Below are positions 94-35,666 of a stretch of DNA of 64,000 bases, one piece after another; positions within the stretch are counted from its first letter, which is position 1; every line of letters starts with the position of its first letter. The stretch is from assembly GCA_902519465.1 (NCBI GenBank), contig CABYJW010000003.1, forward strand, positions 857-64,856. The letters run 5' to 3'. Source of the stretch: an uncultured Pelagibacteraceae bacterium. GTDB taxonomy: Bacteria > Pseudomonadota > Alphaproteobacteria > Pelagibacterales > Pelagibacteraceae. Under the pieces are notes generated by a model. It was not told the origin of the DNA. It searched no databases and saw only the letters and a list, made by a program, of their open reading frames with translations. Both the position numbers and the translations under genes were made by a program.

Positions 94-1278
94 ATGTCTG
101 AAAAAAAATCAGTTGTAATTACATCGGCAGTCAGAACGGCTATTGGTTCTTTAGGGGGAACTCTAAAGAATATACCGGCTTATAAATTAGGCTCTTCGGT
201 AATCTCTAGTGCAATTAAAAAATCTAATTTAAAACCTTCGGAAATTGATGAAGTTATAATGGGGCATGTATTAACTGGTGGAGCTGGACAGAATCCGGCT
301 CGTCAAGCTGCGATAGAGTCAAGATTACCAAAAGAGATTCCTTCATATGTTGTAAATCAAGTTTGCGGATCAGGATTAAGATCTATAGCTTCTGGTTATC
401 ACTCAATTCTTTCTGATAACTCAAATATTGTTATTGCAGGCGGTCAAGAAAGTATGTCACAAGCTCCTCACGTCGTTCATCTAAGAAATGGAAAAAAATT
501 AGGAGATACGGAGCTGGTCGACTCTATGATTAAAGATGGCCTTTGGGATGCATTTAATGGTTATCACATGGGGATCACAGCAGAAAATGTTGCTGAACAA
601 TTTCAAGTAACAAGAAAAGATCAGGATAAATTTGCTTTTGACTCTCAGTCAAAAGCTTTAAAAGCACAAAAGGAAAATAAATTTGATGATGAAATAGTTC
701 CTTATGAAATTGAACTAAAAAAAGGTAATACTATTTTTAATAAAGACGAGCACCCAAGAGTTACTACATCGTTAGATACTTTAAGTAGATTACGTGGAGC
801 ATTTAAAAAAGATGGAACTGTTACTGCTGGGAATGCATCGGGTATTAATGATGGTGCGGCAGCTATTATTTTAATGTCAAAGGAAGAGGCAGAGAAAAGA
901 GGACTAAAACCTCTAGCAGAAATTAAATCATGGGCATCATGTGGCGTTGACCCATCGATTATGGGGACTGGACCTATACCATCTTCAAAAAAAGCTTTGG
1001 AAATTGCTGGATGGTCTTCAAAAGACTTGGACCTAATAGAAGCAAATGAAGCTTTTGCTGCACAAAGCTGTGCTGTTGTAAAAGAACTTTCGCTTCCAAT
1101 GGAAAAGGTAAATGTAAACGGTGGTTCAATTGCCCTTGGCCATCCAATTGGTGCTTCGGGCACGAGAATTTTTGTCACACTAATTCATGAAATGTTAAAA
1201 AGAGATTCCAAAAAGGGTCTGGCTACGCTATGTATTGGAGGAGGCATGGGCGTTGCTATGTGTATTGAACGAAAATGA
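94..1278 (+). CDS. acetyl-CoA C-acetyltransferase (thiolase II)
   Basis: 394-aa ORF with thiolase signatures VNQVCGSGLRS (active-site Cys), NGGSIALGHPIGASG and CIGGGMG near the C-terminus. Confidence 0.93.
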   Translation: MSEKKSVVITSAVRTAIGSLGGTLKNIPAYKLGSSVISSAIKKSNLKPSEIDEVIMGHVLTGGAGQNPARQAAIESRLPKEIPSYVVNQVCGSGLRSIASGYHSILSDNSNIVIAGGQESMSQAPHVVHLRNGKKLGDTELVDSMIKDGLWDAFNGYHMGITAENVAEQFQVTRKDQDKFAFDSQSKALKAQKENKFDDEIVPYEIELKKGNTIFNKDEHPRVTTSLDTLSRLRGAFKKDGTVTAGNASGINDGAAAIILMSKEEAEKRGLKPLAEIKSWASCGVDPSIMGTGPIPSSKKALEIAGWSSKDLDLIEANEAFAAQSCAVVKELSLPMEKVNVNGGSIALGHPIGASGTRIFVTLIHEMLKRDSKKGLATLCIGGGMGVAMCIERK

Positions 1279-1415
1279 AATTATCTAAACCAAGAAAAAA
1301 ACTAAAAAATAGAGCAATCAGTAAAGTACCATTTACTGTAAGAGGATATCAGTATTACTATGGAGCAATAATTTTAGTAGTTTTATTAATTGGTTTTAGC
1401 CAAGTATTTTCTTAA
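1275..1415 (+). CDS. candidate 46-aa tail-anchored small membrane protein (below ORF-track length cutoff)
   Basis: Hand-translated. ATG overlaps the thiolase TGA as ATGA. MKLSKPRKKLKNRAISKVPFTVRGYQYYYGAIILVVLLIGFSQVFS has a basic N-half and one C-terminal hydrophobic helix. Confidence 0.4.
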   Translation: MKLSKPRKKLKNRAISKVPFTVRGYQYYYGAIILVVLLIGFSQVFS

Positions 1416-1560: not shown

Positions 1561-4500
1561 ATGACTAAGAATATATCTGTTCCTGATATAGGTGATTTTA
1601 AGGATGTTGAGATAATCGAAGTACTTGTAAAACCTGGTGACCAAGTAAAAAAAAACGATCCAATTGTTACTTTGGAGAGCGACAAATCAAGTGTCGAGGT
1701 GCCTTCCCCAACTGAAGGTAAAATTTCTGAATTAAAAGTAAAAATTGGAGATAAGGTTTCTGAAGGAAGTGTTCTTGCCACCTTGGAAGGTGAAAATGAC
1801 AAGAAAGAGGAAGTTGCTTCTCCAAAAAAAGAAATTGAAGAGCCTAAAAAAGAAATAGTTCAACACACAGAAAAAACAAATGGGCTCAAGAATGGTAGAG
1901 AAACAATTTATGCTCAACCAATTTCTAAAGATGATATAGATCCTGCGGAAACACAAGAATGGTTGGACTCACTTAGAGCTGTAGTAAAATCAGACGGGTC
2001 CTCTAGAGCAGGTTATCTGCTTAAGAAAGTAATTGACGAAGCATATACTCAAGGATTAACTTTACCTGATACAAGAACTACACCTTATATTAACACTATA
2101 CCATCAACAGCTGACGTCAGATCCCCGGGTGATCAAAACTTAGAAAGAAAAATTAGAGCTTACATAAGATGGAATGCGGCTGCCATGGTTGTTAAAGCTA
2201 ACAAAAAAAATCCAGAGTTAGGTGGTCACATTGGTACTTTTGCATCTGCAGCAACGTTGTATGACGTCGGTATGAACCATTTTTGGAGAGCAAAAAATAA
2301 TAAGTTTGGAGGAGATTTAGTTTATTTTCAAGGTCACAGTGCGCCAGGTATGTATGCAAGAGCTTTTTTAGAGGGAAGAATATCAGAAAAACAATTGGAT
2401 AAATTTAGACAAGAAGTTGAAAAAGGTGGATTGTCCTCTTACCCGCATCCATGGTTGATGCCAAAATTTTGGCAGTTCCCAACTGTATCTATGGGACTTG
2501 GACCAATGATGGCAATTTATCAAGCAAGGTTTACTAAGTATTTAATTAACAGAGGTCTTTTAAAAAATCAGGATAGAAAAATTTGGTGTCACTTGGGTGA
2601 TGGTGAAATGGACGAACCTGAAAGTTTTGGTGCAGTGGGACTAGCAGCACGAGAGAAACTAGATAATTTAATTTTTGTTATAAATTGTAACCTTCAAAGA
2701 TTGGACGGGCCTGTGAGAGGTAATGGAAAAATTATTCAAGAACTTGAAGGTAGATTTAGAGGATCAGGATGGAATGTAATCAAAGTTATTTGGGGTTCTT
2801 ACTGGGATCAACTTTTATTTAAAGATAAAACTGGTTTACTAGTTAAAAGAATGACTGAGGCAGTCGATGGTGAATATCAGGCATTCAAAGCCAAAGGTGG
2901 AGCTTACGTAAGAGAGAAATTTTTTGGTAAATATCCTGAATTAAAAGACTTGGTAGCAAATATGACTGATGCTGATATTTGGAAATTAAATAGAGGAGGA
3001 CACGATCCTCATAAAGTTTACTCAGCTTATCATGCTGCTGTTCAATGCAAAGGTAAGCCAACAGTAATAATAGCTAAAACAATTAAAGGCTACGGGATGG
3101 GTAAATCTGGTGAGAGTATAAATACGACACACCAACAAAAGAAATTAGACGAGGAAGATTTATTATTTTACAGAGATAGATTTAATGTACCACTTACTGA
3201 TAAACAGGTTAAAAATATTGAATATTACAAGCCAGCAGAAAATTCCCCAGAAATAAAGTATTTAAAAAATTGCAGAGTTAAGCTTGGTGGACACATTCCT
3301 GAGAGAACCACTTTTGCAAAACCAGTTAAAACACCTCCTCAAGACATCTTTGAAAGTTTTATGAAGTCCACGGGTGATAAGGAAATGTCAACTACCATGG
3401 CCCTTGTAAGAATGCTTGCGAATTTACTTAGAGATAAAAATGTTGCTCCAAGACTAGTACCAATCATTGCAGATGAAGCAAGAACTTTTGGTATGGAAGG
3501 TTTTTTTCAAAAAATTGGTATCTATGCGCATGAAGGTCAAAAATATGAACCTGTGGACTCTGAGCAATTAAGTTCTTACAGAGAAGATAAAAGTGGCCAA
3601 GTTTTACAAGAAGGTATTACAGAGGCAGGAGCAATGTCATCATGGATTGCAGCTGGAACTTCTTACACAAATCATGATTTAGAAATGGTTCCCATTTATT
3701 TATTTTATTCAATGTTTGGTTTTCAAAGAATTGGAGATTTAGCATGGGCTGCTGCAGATTCTCAGACCAGAGGTTTTTTGATTGGAGCAACATCCGGAAA
3801 AACAACTTTAGCAGGAGAAGGTTTGCAGCACCAAGATGGACATAGTCTTCTCATGGCATCTGCAATACCTAACTGCGTAAGTTATGACCCTACTTTTTCA
3901 TATGAGATGGCGGTCATTTTTAGAGATGGACTTAAGAGGATGCATGAAAAAAAAGAAAATATTTATTACTACATAACTGCAATGAACGAAAATTATACTC
4001 ATCCTGAAAAACCTGCCGGTTCAGATCAGGGGATACTAAAAGGAATGTATTTATTTAAAAATTATAAAGGAAAAGGTAAAGCTAAAGTTCAAATGCTAGG
4101 TTCAGGGTCAATTTTAAGAGAGGTAATAAAAGCTGCTGAGACTTTATCAAAAGATTATGGGATTGATTGTAATGTTTGGAGTGTAACTAGTTTCAATGAA
4201 TTAAAGAAAGACGGCATGGAGATTGAAAGAGGGAATTTACTAAATCCAAAAGATAAGCCAAAGAAAAGCTATGTGCAAAAATGTTTAAACTCACAAGAAG
4301 GTATTATATTTGCAGCATCAGATTATATAAGATCACATGCAGATCAAATAAGACCATATATTAATAAGCCATTCTATACTTTGGGTACCGATGGTTTTGG
4401 AAGAAGTGATACAAGAAAAGAATTAAGAAAGTTTTTTGAAGTTGATAAAAAACACATTGTTACATACACTTTAAGCGCTTTAGCAAAAGAGCAATTACTG

Positions 4501-15233: not shown

Positions 15234-15875
15234 ATGGGTAGAAAAAAGAAGAAAAAAAAGATTAAAGCTGTAAAAAAGAAAATTGAGAAAAAAGTAAGTT
15301 TGACAGTTAAGTCTTCTTCCGCAGACCAAAAGGTAGAAATAAAAAAAATCAAAAAGCAGCCTACAGAAAAGAAAATTTACAATATTAATGATTTTGTGGT
15401 TTATCCTAAAGACGGTGTGGGTAAAATTGTTAGCGTTGAAAAGGCGCTAATAGGTGGAATAGAAACTCAGAATTACAAAATTGAAATATTAAAAGATAAA
15501 CTAACTCTACAATTACCAATAAATAAACAATCCCTTTTGAGACCAATTTGTTCAACGCATCAAATAAATAAATGTATTTCTATTCTTAAAACTAAACCAA
15601 AAGTAAAAAGAACAATGTGGAGCAGAAGAGCACAAGAATATGAGCAAAAAATAAATTCAGGTAAAATTTATGAATTAGCTGAAGTAGTACGAGATCTTAA
15701 CAAAAATTCAAACACTATTGCAGATCAATCTTATAGTGAGAGACTATTGTTTGAAAAAGCATATGACAGACTTGAAAGTGAATTTGAAGTAGTTTTAAAA
15801 ATTTCACAGGAGGATGTCAAAAAAAAGATGGACAAAGCCTTAGGTAGAGAAGAAAAAACACAGGAAATGCAGTAA
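15234..15875 (+). CDS. carD: CarD/CdnL-family RNA-polymerase-binding regulator with Lys-rich N-terminal tail
   Basis: 213 aa. The CarD N-terminal domain begins around FVVYPKDGVGKIVSVE and is preceded by a roughly 50-aa tail MGRKKKKKKIKAVKKKIEKK... Confidence 0.85.
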   Translation: MGRKKKKKKIKAVKKKIEKKVSLTVKSSSADQKVEIKKIKKQPTEKKIYNINDFVVYPKDGVGKIVSVEKALIGGIETQNYKIEILKDKLTLQLPINKQSLLRPICSTHQINKCISILKTKPKVKRTMWSRRAQEYEQKINSGKIYELAEVVRDLNKNSNTIADQSYSERLLFEKAYDRLESEFEVVLKISQEDVKKKMDKALGREEKTQEMQ

Positions 15876-15916
15876 AAAAAACGCTCTTTCCGTGAGATTT
15901 GGAAAGAGCGTTTTTT
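15874..15916. terminator. bidirectional intrinsic terminator
   Basis: An A-run (15874-15881) is followed by the 12-bp stem AACGCTCTTTCC / GGAAAGAGCGTT (15880-15891 / 15901-15912) and a T-run (15911-15916). Confidence 0.8.
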
Positions 15917-15927
15917 GAGAAAACTAT

Positions 15928-15996
15928 TTATCTTCTTCTTCTTCTTTTTTTAGCTTTCTTTTTAGCTTTTTTCTTTTTTTTACGTCTTTTAGCCAT
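15928..15996 (-). CDS. candidate micro-ORF encoding the 22-aa polybasic peptide MAKRRKKKKKAKKKAKKRRRRR
   Basis: Hand-translated. SD GGGAG lies 6 nt upstream of the ATG and the TAA lies 15 nt before the bidirectional terminator. Its own promoter-like element is upstream. Alternative reading: a non-coding homopyrimidine tract. Confidence 0.35.
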   Translation of the reverse strand: MAKRRKKKKKAKKKAKKRRRRR

Positions 15997-16047
15997 CGTT
16001 ATCTCCCTTTTTTTTAAACAAATCGAAGTGATTCGTTAATTGATTTA

Positions 16048-16075
16048 ACTTTAAGTTTTTTTGAATAGATGTCAA
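16048..16075 (-). promoter_or_regulatory. candidate sigma70-type promoter for the micro-ORF
   Basis: Minus strand has TTGACA (16075-16070), a 16-nt spacer and TAAAGT (16053-16048). Confidence 0.3.
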
Positions 16076-16205
16076 ACATAAACTAATCAATAGTTTTTTT
16101 TGAAAATTAAAATAAAATATTTTTATTTTGTTATTTTAAATAGCTTAATAAAAGCCAGCAAAATCAACGGTTATTTAATTATTTTTAATATTTAAAAAAT
16201 AAAAA

Positions 16206-29609: not shown

Positions 29610-30035
29610 ATGTCTTTTGCAATAATAGAAACAGGTGGAAAACAATATAAAGTTTCTGCTAGGAACATTTTAAAGGTGGAAAAATTAAATATTGTAAAAG
29701 GAAACAAAGTTGAATTTAAAAAAGTTCTTTTAGTTAATGATGATAAAAACACTGAAGTTGGAAATCCAACTGTTGAAGGTGCATTAGTTGAAGGCTTGGT
29801 TTTAGACAATATTAGAGATAGAAAAATTTTAGTTTTTAAAAAGAGAAGAAGACAAAACTCAAGAAAAAAATACGGACACAGACAACAGCTTTCAAAAATC
29901 CAAATTATTAAAATTTTATCTAAAGGTGGAAAAGTAGTTTCTGAAATTAAAGAAAATCAAATGAATTTGTCAAAAGAACAAAAATCAGGTAAAAAAACTG
30001 TTAAAAAAAAAGAAGTAATTAAAAATAAGAAATAA
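29610..30035 (+). CDS. rplU: 50S ribosomal protein L21 with K-rich C-terminal extension
   Basis: 141 aa with [15 protein letters not shown]... L21 core followed by a roughly 40-aa Lys-rich tail. Confidence 0.9.
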
Positions 30036-34536: not shown

Positions 34537-35666
34537 TTAGAATATTTAAAATATTAATACTATTTTTCATGTTTACAGGAAATCTTCATAGTAACACGAA
34601 TGAAAAGCTTTATAAAAAAATTGATTTGTTTGGAGAAGTTTTAGAGAAAATTAAAAAAGAATATGTCGAAGACGTAGATCAATCTGAAATGCTAGATTCT
34701 GCTATTAATGGTGCGCTTCAATCTCTAGATCCCTATTCTGCTTACATGAATCCTGAACTTTTTAAAAGTATGGAAACAGATACGAGGGGGGAGTTTGGTG
34801 GACTTGGAATTGAGGTTGGTATGGAGGCTGGAGTAGTGAAAGTAATTTCCCCAATCGATGATACCCCGGCATCTAGAGCGGGGATTAAATCTGGTGATTA
34901 TATTGTAAAAATTGATGACAAGCAGGTTCAAGGTAAATCACTCATGGAGGCAGTTAAAATGATGAGGGGTCCAATTGATTCAAAAATTAAACTTACAATA
35001 AGAAGAAAAGGTGAAAAAAAAGCTTTAGAAAAGATTTTAAAGAGAGAAATAATTCAAATCAAATCAGTAGAAGCTAAAATAGTACAAAAAAATATCGCCT
35101 ATATAAAATTAAAAGCCTTTAATAGCAACAGTAGTAACCAATTAAATAAAAAAATAAGTGATTTTGAAAGAAAGAATAAACCAATCGGATATATTCTTGA
35201 TCTTAGAAATAATCCTGGAGGACTTTTAACCCAAGCAGTAAGTATTACAGATTTTTTCTTAAACGATGGAGAAATTGTTTCAACTAAAGGGAGGAAATCT
35301 ATTGAGAACAGAAGGTTTTTTGCAAGAAAGGGAGATAAAGTCAATGGAAAGCCCTTAATAATTATAATTAATAATGGCTCTGCATCAGCATCTGAAATAG
35401 TTGCAGGTGCGCTTAAAGATCATAAAAGAGCAATCATACTTGGAGAAAAAACATATGGAAAAGGCTCAGTTCAATCTATTATTCCGCTGAGTGATGGTGG
35501 TGGAATACGGTTAACAGTTTCTAAATACTATTTACCATCAGGTAAATCAATTTCAGATGTGGGTGTAGCTCCAGATATTTTTATTGAAGAGCAGGGTCAA
35601 AATTTTAAAACTGACAGTCCTTCTGATAATCAATTAAATTATGCTTTAAAACTTTTAACTCTATGA
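34533..35666 (+). CDS. ctpA: carboxy-terminal processing protease (S41)
   Basis: 377 aa with a signal peptide, a PDZ domain (GGLGIEV) and S41 motifs LDLRNNPGG and SASASEI. Confidence 0.85.
   Translation: MIRIFKILILFFMFTGNLHSNTNEKLYKKIDLFGEVLEKIKKEYVEDVDQSEMLDSAINGALQSLDPYSAYMNPELFKSMETDTRGEFGGLGIEVGMEAGVVKVISPIDDTPASRAGIKSGDYIVKIDDKQVQGKSLMEAVKMMRGPIDSKIKLTIRRKGEKKALEKILKREIIQIKSVEAKIVQKNIAYIKLKAFNSNSSNQLNKKISDFERKNKPIGYILDLRNNPGGLLTQAVSITDFFLNDGEIVSTKGRKSIENRRFFARKGDKVNGKPLIIIINNGSASASEIVAGALKDHKRAIILGEKTYGKGSVQSIIPLSDGGGIRLTVSKYYLPSGKSISDVGVAPDIFIEEQGQNFKTDSPSDNQLNYALKLLTL

What the first reader, a model, noticed from the sequence alone, without database searches (positions are those of the whole stretch)
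15876..16205. Stand-alone micro-gene for a 22-aa, 18/22 Lys/Arg peptide in the only large non-coding gap of the window
Genes in this window are usually 0-30 nt apart, yet 15876-16205 is a 330-nt gap with nothing in the ORF track. Read on the minus strand, it contains every part of a self-contained gene. The promoter-like element is TTGACA (16075-16070), a 16-nt spacer and TAAAGT (16053-16048). A strong Shine-Dalgarno GGGAG lies 6 nt upstream of the ATG at 15996; comparably strong SD sites appear here only at the TAXI receptor gene and rplU. The ORF is ATG GCT AAA AGA CGT AAA AAA AAG AAA AAA GCT AAA AAG AAA GCT AAA AAA (AGA)x5 TAA, which encodes MAKRRKKKKKAKKKAKKRRRRR. Fifteen nt after the stop is the 12-bp hairpin 15880-15912, flanked by an A-run and a T-run, so it can terminate both this gene and the convergent carD. 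The composition resembles ultra-short polybasic ribosomal proteins (eL41, Thermus bTHX, actinobacterial bS22/bL37) or a protamine-like nucleic-acid binder. I know of no such protein described for SAR11-type bacteria. The competing explanation is a non-coding homopyrimidine tract ((TCT)x5, TTTTTAGCTTT x2) that happens to be open.
Basis: partly seen in the sequence, partly recalled or inferred. Interest (0 to 1): 0.75.

Follow-up and report, generated by a model that had tools for sequence, protein, structure and literature searches.

The report
Unannotated polycationic micro-protein gene in SAR11
The 330-base "empty" gap holds a real, complete and previously unannotated mini-gene, conserved across SAR11 marine bacteria, that encodes a 22-33-residue peptide made almost entirely of lysine and arginine. 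It most likely acts as a nucleic-acid-binding polycation, but its target is not known.

Summary
On the minus strand, 15872-16075 carries TTGACA-16 nt-TAAAGT, a 5'-leader stem-loop, GGGAG 6 nt before the ATG, a 22-codon ORF (MAKRRKKKKKAKKKAKKRRRRR) and a 12-bp terminator.

The same gene sits convergent to carD in 41 of 43 informative Pelagibacteraceae loci. CarD identity to the window in these loci falls to 57%. One further locus is cut by a contig end, and one has a 1-nt homopolymer frameshift. The gene is also intact in 11 further contigs.

- All length changes (22-33 codons) are in frame.
- Of 530 purine-only codons, only one has G at position 1. No AAY or AGY codons occur.
- Arg codons swap between AGA and CGT/CGA.
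- AAG codons break every A-run at 7-8 nt (0 of 2000 shuffles do as well).
- TTGACA, GGGAG and the leader stem are invariant.
- Six of 12 terminator pairs show compensatory changes.

The gene is absent from Pfam, NCBIfam, PHROGs, PDB, a 15-billion-protein collection and all gene calls inspected. It is not detectably eL41 or bS22; positive controls for both families worked.

The variable-length (A/T)KKK repeats argue for a generic polycation of the H1-tail or protamine type rather than a fixed-pocket ribosomal protein, but this is inference.

The parts
16070..16075 (-). -35 promoter hexamer TTGACA
   Evidence: Found by the scan. It is present in all 42 loci compared.
16048..16053 (-). -10 hexamer TAAAGT, 16 nt after the -35. 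The transcription start inferred from it is near 16041.
   Evidence: A -10-like hexamer with A at position 2 and T at position 6 lies 16-18 nt from TTGACA in 39 of 42 loci. The start site is inferred, not measured.
16018..16036 (-). 5'-leader stem-loop ACGAAUC-acuuc-GAUUUGU, about 5 nt from the inferred 5' end. It contains a GANTC site (GAATC, 16034-16030).
   Evidence: CGAATCA is invariant and GATTYG nearly so in 40 distinct leaders. 94% of cells pair. The changes seen are G-C to G.U in the window's clade and AU/GU/GC at the outer pair. It is the only match to this motif in the 64-kb window. It forms in the MFE fold of the predicted mRNA.
16003..16007 (-). Shine-Dalgarno GGGAG, 6 nt before the ATG
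   Evidence: Present in all 42 loci, with spacing of 6 nt in 33 and 5 nt in 9. Motifs this strong are rare at real starts in the window. The region is single-stranded in the predicted fold.
15928..15996 (-). Micro-ORF of 22 codons plus TAA: MAKRRKKKKKAKKKAKKRRRRR. Net charge is about +18 and mass about 2.87 kDa, or 2.73 kDa without Met (mass is my calculation).
   Evidence: Orthologues of 22-33 aa occur in 41 of 43 informative genome loci and 11 further contigs. Codon-position and A-run statistics support translation.
15913..15927 (-). Short pyrimidine-rich 3' UTR (AUAGUUUUCUCAAAA) between the stop codon and the terminator
   Evidence: TAGTTTTCT or TTAGTATTCTTT is conserved within clades. It pairs with AGAAAGCUA of the coding region in the MFE fold. 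Its role is unknown.
15874..15912 (.). Bidirectional intrinsic terminator shared with convergent carD. The stem-loop is 15912-15880 (12 bp), followed by U8 on the minus strand (15881-15874, the first two U pairing at the stem's base). A shorter T-run (15911-15916) follows it on the plus strand.
   Evidence: The consensus fold has 12 pairs, 6 of them with compensatory double changes across 25 loci. The predicted mRNA folds with z = -4.5.

Best explanation
This is a genuine monocistronic micro-gene of roughly 170 nt. An invariant TTGACA promoter element drives a short mRNA. A stem-loop next to the 5' end probably stabilises that mRNA or is bound by a regulator. An unstructured, A-rich ribosome-binding region with a strong GGGAG gives efficient initiation, and a strong terminator ends the transcript 15 nt after the stop codon.

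The product is a peptide of 22 aa here and 22-33 aa in relatives. It is built only of Lys, Arg, Ala and Thr (plus Pro at position 2 in one clade), with about +18 to +24 net charge. The ends are conserved (M[A/P]KRRKK... and ...KKRRRR). The middle holds a variable number of (A/T)KKK units.

I propose that it works electrostatically, as an abundant and sequence-unspecific counter-ion for nucleic acids. In this view it resembles a bacterial protamine or a free-standing histone-H1 tail that neutralises and compacts the AT-rich nucleoid, or RNA and ribosomes, in these very small cells.

Shown: the gene's anatomy, its conservation, and selection acting at the protein level. Inferred: high expression, nucleic-acid binding, and the choice of target.
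For: **The gene is real.**
- It lies in the same position and orientation in 41 of 43 informative Pelagibacteraceae loci whose CarD is 57-81% identical to the window's.
- It is also intact in 7 close relatives and 4 metagenome contigs.
- There are 28 distinct ORF DNAs in 9 lengths, all multiples of 3.
- Strains with identical CarD differ by exactly one AGA codon.

**The variation follows the genetic code.**
- Of 530 purine-only codons, G is at position 1 in 1, at position 2 in 158 and at position 3 in 102 (chi-square p = 2e-32).
- There are no Glu, Asn or Ser codons.
- Ala codons vary freely at position 3 (GCT, GCA, GCG).
- Arg codons swap between AGA and CGT/CGA.

**Frame maintenance is under selection.**
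- AAG makes up 27% of Lys codons here against 14% in the window's long genes.
- AAG is placed so that no A-run exceeds 7-8 nt. None of 2000 synonymous shuffles does as well.

**The expression signals are conserved.**
- TTGACA 42/42, GGGAG 42/42, leader stem invariant, and terminator covariation in 6 of 12 pairs.
- The SD and AUG are unpaired in the predicted fold.

**A generic polycation fits better than a fixed-site protein.**
- The peptide has only four or five residue types and no hydrophobic or aromatic anchor.
- Length varies from 22 to 33 aa through repeat-unit gain and loss.
- Repeat-number polymorphism of Lys-rich units is documented for the chlamydial H1-like DNA condenser Hc2 (PMC2848022).
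- By contrast, Borrelia bS22 shows one substitution across the whole genus (10.1101/2023.04.16.537070).
- A very small basic DNA-binding peptide has a bacterial precedent in Coxiella ScvA (PMC4766238).
Against: - There is no direct evidence of a transcript, of translation or of any binding partner. The one in-situ TSS data set for a SAR11 genome could not be read because the supplement was truncated.
- Most characterised stand-alone bacterial genes for polybasic peptides under 35 aa encode ribosomal proteins (bS22, bL37, bTHX; Coxiella CLaSP, PMC13392368). The prior therefore favours the ribosome.
- Low-complexity sequences can hide real homology.
- One complete genome (L020, nBUS_28) carries a 1-nt frameshift.
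- A Lys/Arg-only peptide is nitrogen-expensive for an organism that economises on nitrogen (my background knowledge). That argues for a specific, essential role but does not say which one.
Confidence: 0.5

Rival explanations
1. It is a dedicated, lineage-specific ribosomal protein. In this view a single basic helix is buried in an rRNA pocket, in the manner of eL41/bS22/mS38 (h44-h45-h27/H68 pocket) or of bL37/CLaSP (23S-5S cleft). The leader hairpin would then serve autogenous translational control, as it does in ribosomal-protein operons.
For: - Size and charge match known ultra-short ribosomal proteins. eL41 is 25 aa and bS22 is 33 aa; both sequences were verified against PDB.
- Such proteins have repeatedly been missed by annotation and found only by cryo-EM, as with Borrelia bS22 (10.1101/2023.04.16.537070) and Coxiella CLaSP (PMC13392368).
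- The strong, conserved promoter and SD fit ribosomal-protein-level expression.
- It is a single-copy core gene across the family.
- A sequence-invariant leader stem could be a binding site for its own product.
Against: - There is no profile match to PF05162 (eL41) or PF08213 (bS22/mS38), or to any Pfam or NCBIfam family, at E <= 10. Genuine eL41 and bS22 score 46 bits in the same search.
- A profile of 19 variants finds nothing in PDB at E <= 10. The same tool links eL41 across eukaryotes and archaea, and links bS22 to mS38.
- Length varies by 50% and repeat units come and go, even between strains with identical CarD. That is hard to reconcile with a fixed pocket.
- No hydrophobic or aromatic anchor residues are present.
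Confidence: 0.27
2. The peptide is made, but its target is neither DNA nor RNA. Possible targets are polyphosphate granules, acidic membrane lipids or an acidic protein partner. Alternatively, the act of translating it is the function, for example as a sensor of Lys/Arg-tRNA supply that controls read-through antisense to carD.
For: - Polycations bind any polyanion, and polyP-chromatin links are known in bacteria (PMC11894788, listed).
- The stop codon lies only 15 nt from the terminator stem, so a terminating ribosome would touch it.
- The gene is always convergent with carD and shares its terminator.
Against: - No co-oriented gene lies downstream.
- No alternative antiterminator structure appears in the predicted fold, and the terminator is strong with U8.
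- There is no signal peptide, hydrophobic segment or neighbouring transporter.
- Synteny with carD may simply reflect the general gene-order conservation of SAR11 genomes.
Confidence: 0.12
3. The functional product is the RNA. In this view it is a small regulatory RNA or Hfq-type (ARN)n sponge with its own promoter and terminator, and the ORF is incidental or secondary (a dual-function RNA).
For: - It is a short transcript with a 5' hairpin, a long unstructured purine-rich middle and an intrinsic terminator, which is sRNA-like architecture.
- AAA, AAG and AGA triplets fit the A-R-N pattern that binds the distal face of Hfq (my background knowledge).
Against: - An ARN element would tolerate any third base, yet none of about 530 A-R-x codons ends in C or T.
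- Arg positions switch between AGA and CGT/CGA, which breaks the ARN pattern but keeps Arg.
- The ATG, the in-frame stop, and GGGAG at 5-6 nt are invariant.
- No Rfam family reaches threshold. The best hit is atoC at 26 bits against a gathering score of 50.
Confidence: 0.06
4. It is a non-coding homopurine/homopyrimidine tract that merely happens to be open, or the antisense 46-aa ORF (15899-16039, plus strand) is the real gene.
For: - Purine-only DNA cannot contain stop codons in the sense frames, so openness alone proves nothing.
- An antisense ORF does exist in the window.
Against: - All the conservation and codon evidence above argues against it.
- The antisense ORF is absent from many loci, changes frame and start codon between the loci that have one, starts inside the terminator and has no SD.
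Confidence: 0.02

Closest known systems
eL41 (eS32) and bS22/mS38: ultra-short polybasic ribosomal proteins
   Same: They are stand-alone genes for peptides of 25-33 aa with 55-70% Lys+Arg that bind rRNA as a single helix. bS22 was long unannotated in Borrelia.
   Different: - There is no detectable sequence relationship (with positive controls).
- Those proteins have fixed length and conserved W, M, L, H and Q residues.
- The SAR11 peptide is 65-83% K+R (82% in the window), has only K, R, A, T and P, and varies from 22 to 33 aa.
Protamines and histone-H1-like bacterial DNA condensers (Chlamydia Hc1/Hc2, H1-like tails of HupB and AlgP)
   Same: - Extreme basic charge.
- (A/T)KKK-type repeats.
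- Repeat-number polymorphism between strains (Hc2: PMC2848022).
- No need for a fixed fold.
   Different: - The bacterial examples are 100-240 aa, or are tails of folded proteins. This is a free peptide of 22-33 aa.
- Protamines are Arg-rich and eukaryotic.
- DNA binding has not been shown here.
Coxiella burnetii ScvA
   Same: It is a very small basic DNA-binding peptide encoded by its own gene and enriched in the condensed-nucleoid small-cell variant (PMC4766238). Its length of about 30 aa is from my memory.
   Different: - It belongs to a different phylum.
- Its composition is Arg/Gln-rich (from memory, not checked here).
- It is developmentally regulated.
- Homology was not tested because the sequence was not at hand.
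Coxiella CLaSP and mycobacterial bL37
   Same: They are lineage-specific small peptides found on ribosomes by cryo-EM. They are unannotated or recently named, and the paper suggests the two may have converged (PMC13392368).
   Different: They occupy a defined 23S-5S cleft. Nothing places the SAR11 peptide there.

Membership tests
Protein-coding gene under purifying selection | Start codon, SD and in-frame stop are conserved, and indels occur only in multiples of 3 | tested here: met
   All 42 complete ORFs have ATG and GGGAG at 5-6 nt. The 9 lengths (69-102 nt) are all multiples of 3. The single exception is L020, which has one A missing from an A7 run while everything downstream remains intact in the original frame.
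Protein-coding gene under purifying selection | Substitution pattern follows the genetic code (synonymous and conservative changes) | tested here: met
   G is at codon position 1 in 1 of 530 purine-only codons, against 158 at position 2 and 102 at position 3. No AAY or AGY codons occur. GCT/GCA/GCG and AGA/CGT/CGA swaps are seen.
Sigma-70-type promoter | -35 and -10 hexamers at 16-18 nt spacing | tested here: met
   The window has TTGACA-16-TAAAGT, a 10/12 match. TTGACA is present in 42/42 loci, and a -10 with A2/T6 in 39/42. The single-sequence match is not above shuffles. Promoter activity was not measured.
Intrinsic (Rho-independent) terminator | G+C-rich stem-loop followed by a U-run, with pairing conserved | tested here: met
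   A 12-bp stem followed by U8. Six of 12 pairs show compensatory changes in 25 loci.
eL41 / eS32 (Pfam PF05162) | Match to the family profile | tested here: not met
   No Pfam hit at E <= 10 for three variants. Human eL41 scores 46.3 bits in the same run. No PDB hit with a 19-sequence profile, whereas eL41 finds 30 chains.
bS22 / mS38 (Pfam PF08213, COX24_C) | Match to the family profile | tested here: not met
   No hit at E <= 10. M. smegmatis bS22 scores 46.2 bits in the same run and finds mS38 in PDB.
Any ribosomal protein | Stoichiometric presence at a defined site in purified ribosomes | not testable with these tools
   This needs cryo-EM or top-down mass spectrometry of SAR11 ribosomes.
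bL37 / bTHX and other named small ribosomal proteins | Match to an NCBIfam or Pfam model | tested here: not met
   No families matched in NCBIfam or Pfam at E <= 10. No positive control was run for these two families.
Protamine / H1-like polycationic DNA condensers | Very high basic content, low complexity, and repeat-unit copy-number variation | tested here: met
   65-83% K+R across variants (82% in the window), with (A/T)KKK units varying so that length runs from 22 to 33 aa. These are shared compositional traits, not evidence of homology.
Protamine / H1-like polycationic DNA condensers | Binds and condenses DNA in vivo | not testable with these tools
   This needs EMSA or condensation assays with synthetic peptide, or localisation studies.
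Leader peptide / transcription attenuator | A co-oriented downstream gene and mutually exclusive terminator and antiterminator structures | tested here: not met
   The next genes downstream are all on the opposite strand. No alternative structure competes with the terminator in the predicted fold.
Known RNA families (Rfam 15) | Score at or above the gathering threshold | tested here: not met
   The best hit is atoC at 26.4 bits against a gathering score of 50. All others are weaker.

The most novel reading that the evidence does not exclude
SAR11 cells, the most abundant free-living bacteria and among the smallest, carry a core gene that two decades of annotation have missed. It would encode one of two things. 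One is a bacterial 'protamine', a free peptide of about 2.7-4 kDa that compacts the nucleoid. The other is a new lineage-specific ribosomal protein. Its expression may be tied to the cell cycle through the invariant CcrM (GANTC) site or sites in its 5' leader.
Probability: 0.35. Interest if true: 0.85.

Novelty: new variant of a known kind. Interest (0 to 1): 0.68.

Why it matters
SAR11 genomes are the textbook case of streamlining, with about 1.3 Mb, very short spacers and few regulators. A conserved, strongly signalled gene hidden in one of the few long spacers would therefore be a real addition to a very small core gene set.

If the peptide is abundant, it bears on how the smallest free-living cells neutralise and pack their DNA and RNA, and on their nitrogen budget. 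It may also bear on ribosome composition in Alphaproteobacteria.

Trypsin would destroy the peptide, and standard gene callers missed it in every record inspected. It is therefore also a concrete example of what current proteomic and annotation pipelines miss. The hypotheses can be tested directly with a synthetic peptide and existing SAR11 cultures.

Tried and rejected
1. **Large protein-database search with the peptide profile.** An exact look-up of 10 variants found none.
2. **CarD search to reach distant lineages.** It listed only relatives at 78% identity or more, so deep SAR11 clades such as LD12, and sister orders, were not sampled. The window's own CarD is not on record.
3. **Metagenome scan with the leader motif.** The pattern was too permissive. 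About 116 of the 120 stretches are chance hits in unrelated GC-rich DNA. The 4 SAR11 hits all carry the polybasic ORF.
4. **Viral contigs.** There were two unrelated matches and no micro-gene.
5. **Syntenic equivalents outside SAR11.** None was found within 3 kb of carD in 36 loci, mostly Rhodobacterales with some other alphaproteobacteria and unclassified Pseudomonadota MAGs, even at relaxed thresholds.
6. **Direct expression evidence.** The Red Sea mdRNA-seq study of HTCC7211 was consulted. The text lists only annotated genes, and the stored supplement is cut before the SAR11 table.
7. **Earlier descriptions.** The 2009 survey of P. ubique structured RNAs has no occurrence of carD, fadD, lysine or short ORF, and five further literature searches found no description.
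8. **Antisense ORF.** Rejected.
9. **Hfq (ARN)n sponge.** Rejected on third-position evidence.
10. **Leader inverted repeat as a pure DNA operator.** This is less likely because the window clade's change (GATTCG to GATTTG) keeps RNA pairing as G.U but breaks DNA symmetry. It is not excluded.
11. **Structure prediction.** It was not possible because the peptide is under 30 aa.
Full report
**1. The observation**

- TTGACA lies at 16075-16070, followed by 16 nt and TAAAGT at 16053-16048. The promoter scan found this too, as a 10/12 match.
- GGGAG lies at 16007-16003, 6 nt before the ATG at 15996.
- The ORF is ATG GCT AAA AGA CGT AAA AAA AAG AAA AAA GCT AAA AAG AAA GCT AAA AAA (AGA)x5 TAA, ending at 15928. 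It encodes MAKRRKKKKKAKKKAKKRRRRR.
- A 12-bp hairpin spans 15912-15880 with a 9-nt loop and is followed by eight U. The carD stop codon (15873-15875) lies inside that run.
- The terminator scan returned nothing only because its loop limit is 8 nt.

The gap 15876-16205 is the longest stretch without an ORF of 90 aa or more. The other long gaps are explained by rpmA, by a tRNA, or by a 46-aa ORF.

Two caveats apply.
- GGGAG also precedes carD.
- In this 31% G+C DNA a promoter-like match is not unusual by itself: 4 were found against 5.1 expected.

The ORF is the only one of 10-60 aa in the window with at least 60% Lys+Arg.

**2. Comparative evidence that it is a gene**

I used the neighbouring CarD protein to fetch loci from one genome per species. 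That gave 44 Pelagibacteraceae loci with 57-81% CarD identity, and 36 loci from Rhodobacterales and other alphaproteobacteria with 43-48% identity.

Among the 44 Pelagibacteraceae loci:
- 41 have an intact polybasic micro-ORF of 22-33 aa, convergent to carD and 60-170 nt beyond the end of the CarD match.
- L044 ends inside carD and is uninformative.
- L008 ends inside the micro-ORF but shows its 3' part and the terminator.
- L020, a complete genome, has one A missing from an A7 run. Restoring it gives a 35-aa Lys/Arg peptide ending at the original stop, so this looks like a homopolymer error or a very recent mutation.

Further intact copies came from other sources.
- Seven contigs carry CarD variants 90% and 97% identical to the window's. 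Gene callers left the spacer empty in every one of them.
- Four SAR11 contigs were recovered from metagenomes by a search for the leader motif alone, without reference to the ORF.
- None of the non-SAR11 loci has an equivalent.

**3. Selection acts on the protein**

The 42 complete ORFs comprise 28 distinct DNA sequences in nine lengths (69-102 nt), all multiples of three. Contigs with identical CarD differ by exactly one AGA codon.

A purine tract cannot contain stop codons, so openness alone is not evidence. The informative signal is the codon-position pattern.
- Among 530 purine-only codons, G occurs at position 1 once, at position 2 158 times and at position 3 102 times (p = 2e-32). Glu and Gly codons are therefore avoided, while Lys-Arg and AAA-AAG changes are free.
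- No AAY (Asn) or AGY (Ser) codon occurs, although T-ending codons are common in this genome.
- Ala codons vary at the third base (GCT 93, GCA 17, GCG 7).
- Arg positions 4-5 switch among AGA, CGT and CGA.

This is the signature of the genetic code. It is not the signature of an RNA-binding (ARN)n element, which would allow any third base.

A-run lengths give a second signal.
- AAG makes up 27% of Lys codons here, against 14% in the window's long genes.
- AAG is placed so that the longest A-run is 7 or 8 nt in every sequence.
- Shuffling AAA and AAG among the Lys positions gives a mean longest run of 9.0. None of 2000 shuffles matches the observed total.
- This is as expected if slippage-prone poly(A) is selected against in order to keep the frame.

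These sequences are related, so the p-values overstate independence. The direction of the evidence is nonetheless unambiguous.

The antisense 46-aa ORF of the window is not conserved.

**4. Anatomy of the transcription unit**

- **Promoter.** TTGACA is present in 42/42 loci. A -10-like hexamer with A2 and T6 follows at 16-18 nt in 39/42.
- **Leader stem-loop.** About 5 nt after the inferred start lies (A/G)CGAAUCA-N4-5-(U)GAUUYG(U/C). CGAATCA is invariant and 94% of cells pair. The few changes keep RNA pairing: G-C to G.U throughout the window's clade, and AU/GU/GC at the closing pair. Because the G.U change breaks DNA symmetry, I favour an RNA-level role, either 5'-end protection or a protein-binding site. 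Covariation is too sparse to prove this.
- **GANTC sites.** The stem contains GAATC, and in most lineages also GATTC. These are CcrM-type GANTC sites. GANTC methylation is documented in Pelagibacter (PMC9516812), and GANTC is nearly two-fold depleted in the window (97 against 176 +/- 13). Cell-cycle-linked control is therefore a testable idea and nothing more.
- **Ribosome-binding site.** GGGAG is invariant, 5-6 nt from the ATG.
- **Terminator.** Six of its 12 pairs show compensatory double changes.
- **Whole-transcript fold.** The predicted 170-nt mRNA folds into a 5' hairpin, an open SD/AUG and coding region, and the terminator (z = -4.5). The 130 nt upstream of the promoter show no significant structure (z = -1.0).
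- **Leader motif.** It occurs once in the 64 kb.

**5. What it is not**

- **Rfam.** No family reaches threshold.
- **Pfam, NCBIfam, PHROGs.** No family matches at E <= 10.
- **Positive controls.** In the same Pfam run, eL41 and M. smegmatis bS22 hit PF05162 and PF08213 at 46 bits.
- **PDB.** A profile of 19 variants finds nothing at E <= 10. With the same tool, eL41 finds 30 distinct sequences from eukaryotes and archaea, and bS22 finds mS38.
- **Protein collection.** Ten variants are absent from a 15-billion-sequence collection. Two of them come from RefSeq-accessioned (NZ_) assemblies, the cultured strain HIMB1709 and the MAG labelled HIMB1838. The gene is therefore unannotated in the public records sampled.
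- **Literature.** Searches found no description.
- **Phages.** The gene is not phage-borne.

**6. How it most likely works**

Shown: a conserved gene whose product is constrained to be an extremely cationic peptide free of acidic and hydrophobic residues. Its ends are conserved (M[A/P]KRRKK... and ...KKRRRR), and a variable number of (A/T)KKK units lies between them.

Inferred: high expression, from the invariant -35, the strong SD, the open initiation region, the 5' hairpin and the efficient terminator. Also inferred is binding to polyanions.

The choice between a generic polycation and a dedicated ribosomal protein rests on one argument. Proteins that fit an rRNA pocket keep their length and their anchor residues.
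- eL41 is recognisable by sequence from eukaryotes to archaea.
- Borrelia bS22 shows one substitution across the genus.
- This peptide changes length by 50% through repeat turnover, even between near-identical strains.
- Such repeat turnover is typical of H1-like bacterial DNA condensers such as Hc2 (PMC2848022).
- Small basic DNA-binding peptides exist in bacteria (ScvA and Hq1, PMC4766238).

I therefore put the generic nucleic-acid counter-ion or condenser first (0.5) and a ribosomal protein second (0.27). Precedent still favours ribosomes for stand-alone polybasic micro-genes. Other targets or a translation-sensing role get 0.12, an RNA-only function 0.06, and chance 0.02.

**7. Novelty and verdict**

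The kind of molecule, a tiny polycationic nucleic-acid-binding protein, is known. This family is not. It has no detectable homologue, a more extreme and simpler composition than eL41 or bS22, variable length, and a distribution that so far covers only Pelagibacteraceae.

It is a new variant of a known kind, found in an organism where a missed core gene is noteworthy. The functional assignment remains open and can be tested directly.

Noticed in passing
window 15234-15360 (+): CarD itself begins with a Lys-rich extension (MGRKKKKKKIKAVKKKIEKK...) that precedes the region matched in Rhodobacterales CarD (matches there start at query residues 28-49). It is a second polycationic element at this locus, on the convergent gene.
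   Followed up: no
window 29610-30035 (+): The rplU (bL21) ORF carries a Lys-rich C-terminal tail (...[21 protein letters not shown]). Lys-rich extensions may be a general feature of nucleic-acid-binding proteins in this AT-rich genome.
   Followed up: no
whole window; leader site at 16030-16034: GANTC, the CcrM methylation motif, is nearly two-fold under-represented: 97 sites against 176 +/- 13 in shuffles. Yet one GANTC is invariant in the micro-gene's leader stem, and a second is present in most lineages. GANTC methylation in Pelagibacter is documented (PMC9516812).
   Followed up: partly
window about 16140-16178 (-): A second conserved block lies 30-65 nt after the acyl-CoA synthetase stop codon (AAAAAA..TTGAT..ACT..CTTTTTT in the window's clade; GTTTAT-N7-ATAAAC + T-run in the other clade). 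It may be that gene's weak A/T-rich terminator. The window's version has no significant predicted structure.
   Followed up: partly
window 35357-35482 (-): An Rfam match to Rickettsia sRNA47 (RF02800) scores 62 bits, just above the gathering score of 60, and covers only model positions 33-158 of 316.
   Followed up: no
window 1275-1415 (+): A 46-aa ORF with a basic N-terminus and a hydrophobic C-terminal segment (MKLSKPRKKLKNRAISKVPFTVRGYQYYYGAIILVVLLIGFSQVFS) overlaps the stop codon of the upstream thiolase-like gene, in a 236-nt gap. It may be another unannotated small membrane protein.
   Followed up: no
L020 (NZ_CP172844.1, Ca. Pelagibacter nBUS_28), about 3700-3810: This is the only frameshifted copy. 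One A is missing from the AGA AAA AAA GCT run, and the rest of the gene is intact in the original frame. It is a likely homopolymer error in a complete genome. L083, a pilon-polished long-read contig with several split genes, has the only Glu codon seen.
   Followed up: partly
window 15913-15927 and 15950-15960 (-): The conserved pyrimidine-rich 3' UTR (UAGUUUUCU) is complementary to AGAAAGCUA inside the ORF and pairs with it in the MFE fold. In the other clade, CUUAGU could pair with ACUAAG or GCUAAG codon pairs. This may affect mRNA compaction or may be coincidence.
   Followed up: no
P0001 (324 aa), P0103 (339 aa), P0114 (280 aa): Some database 'CarD' proteins on short contigs are 70-125 aa longer than the 213-aa norm. 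These may be mis-called starts or read-through fusions near this spacer.
   Followed up: no
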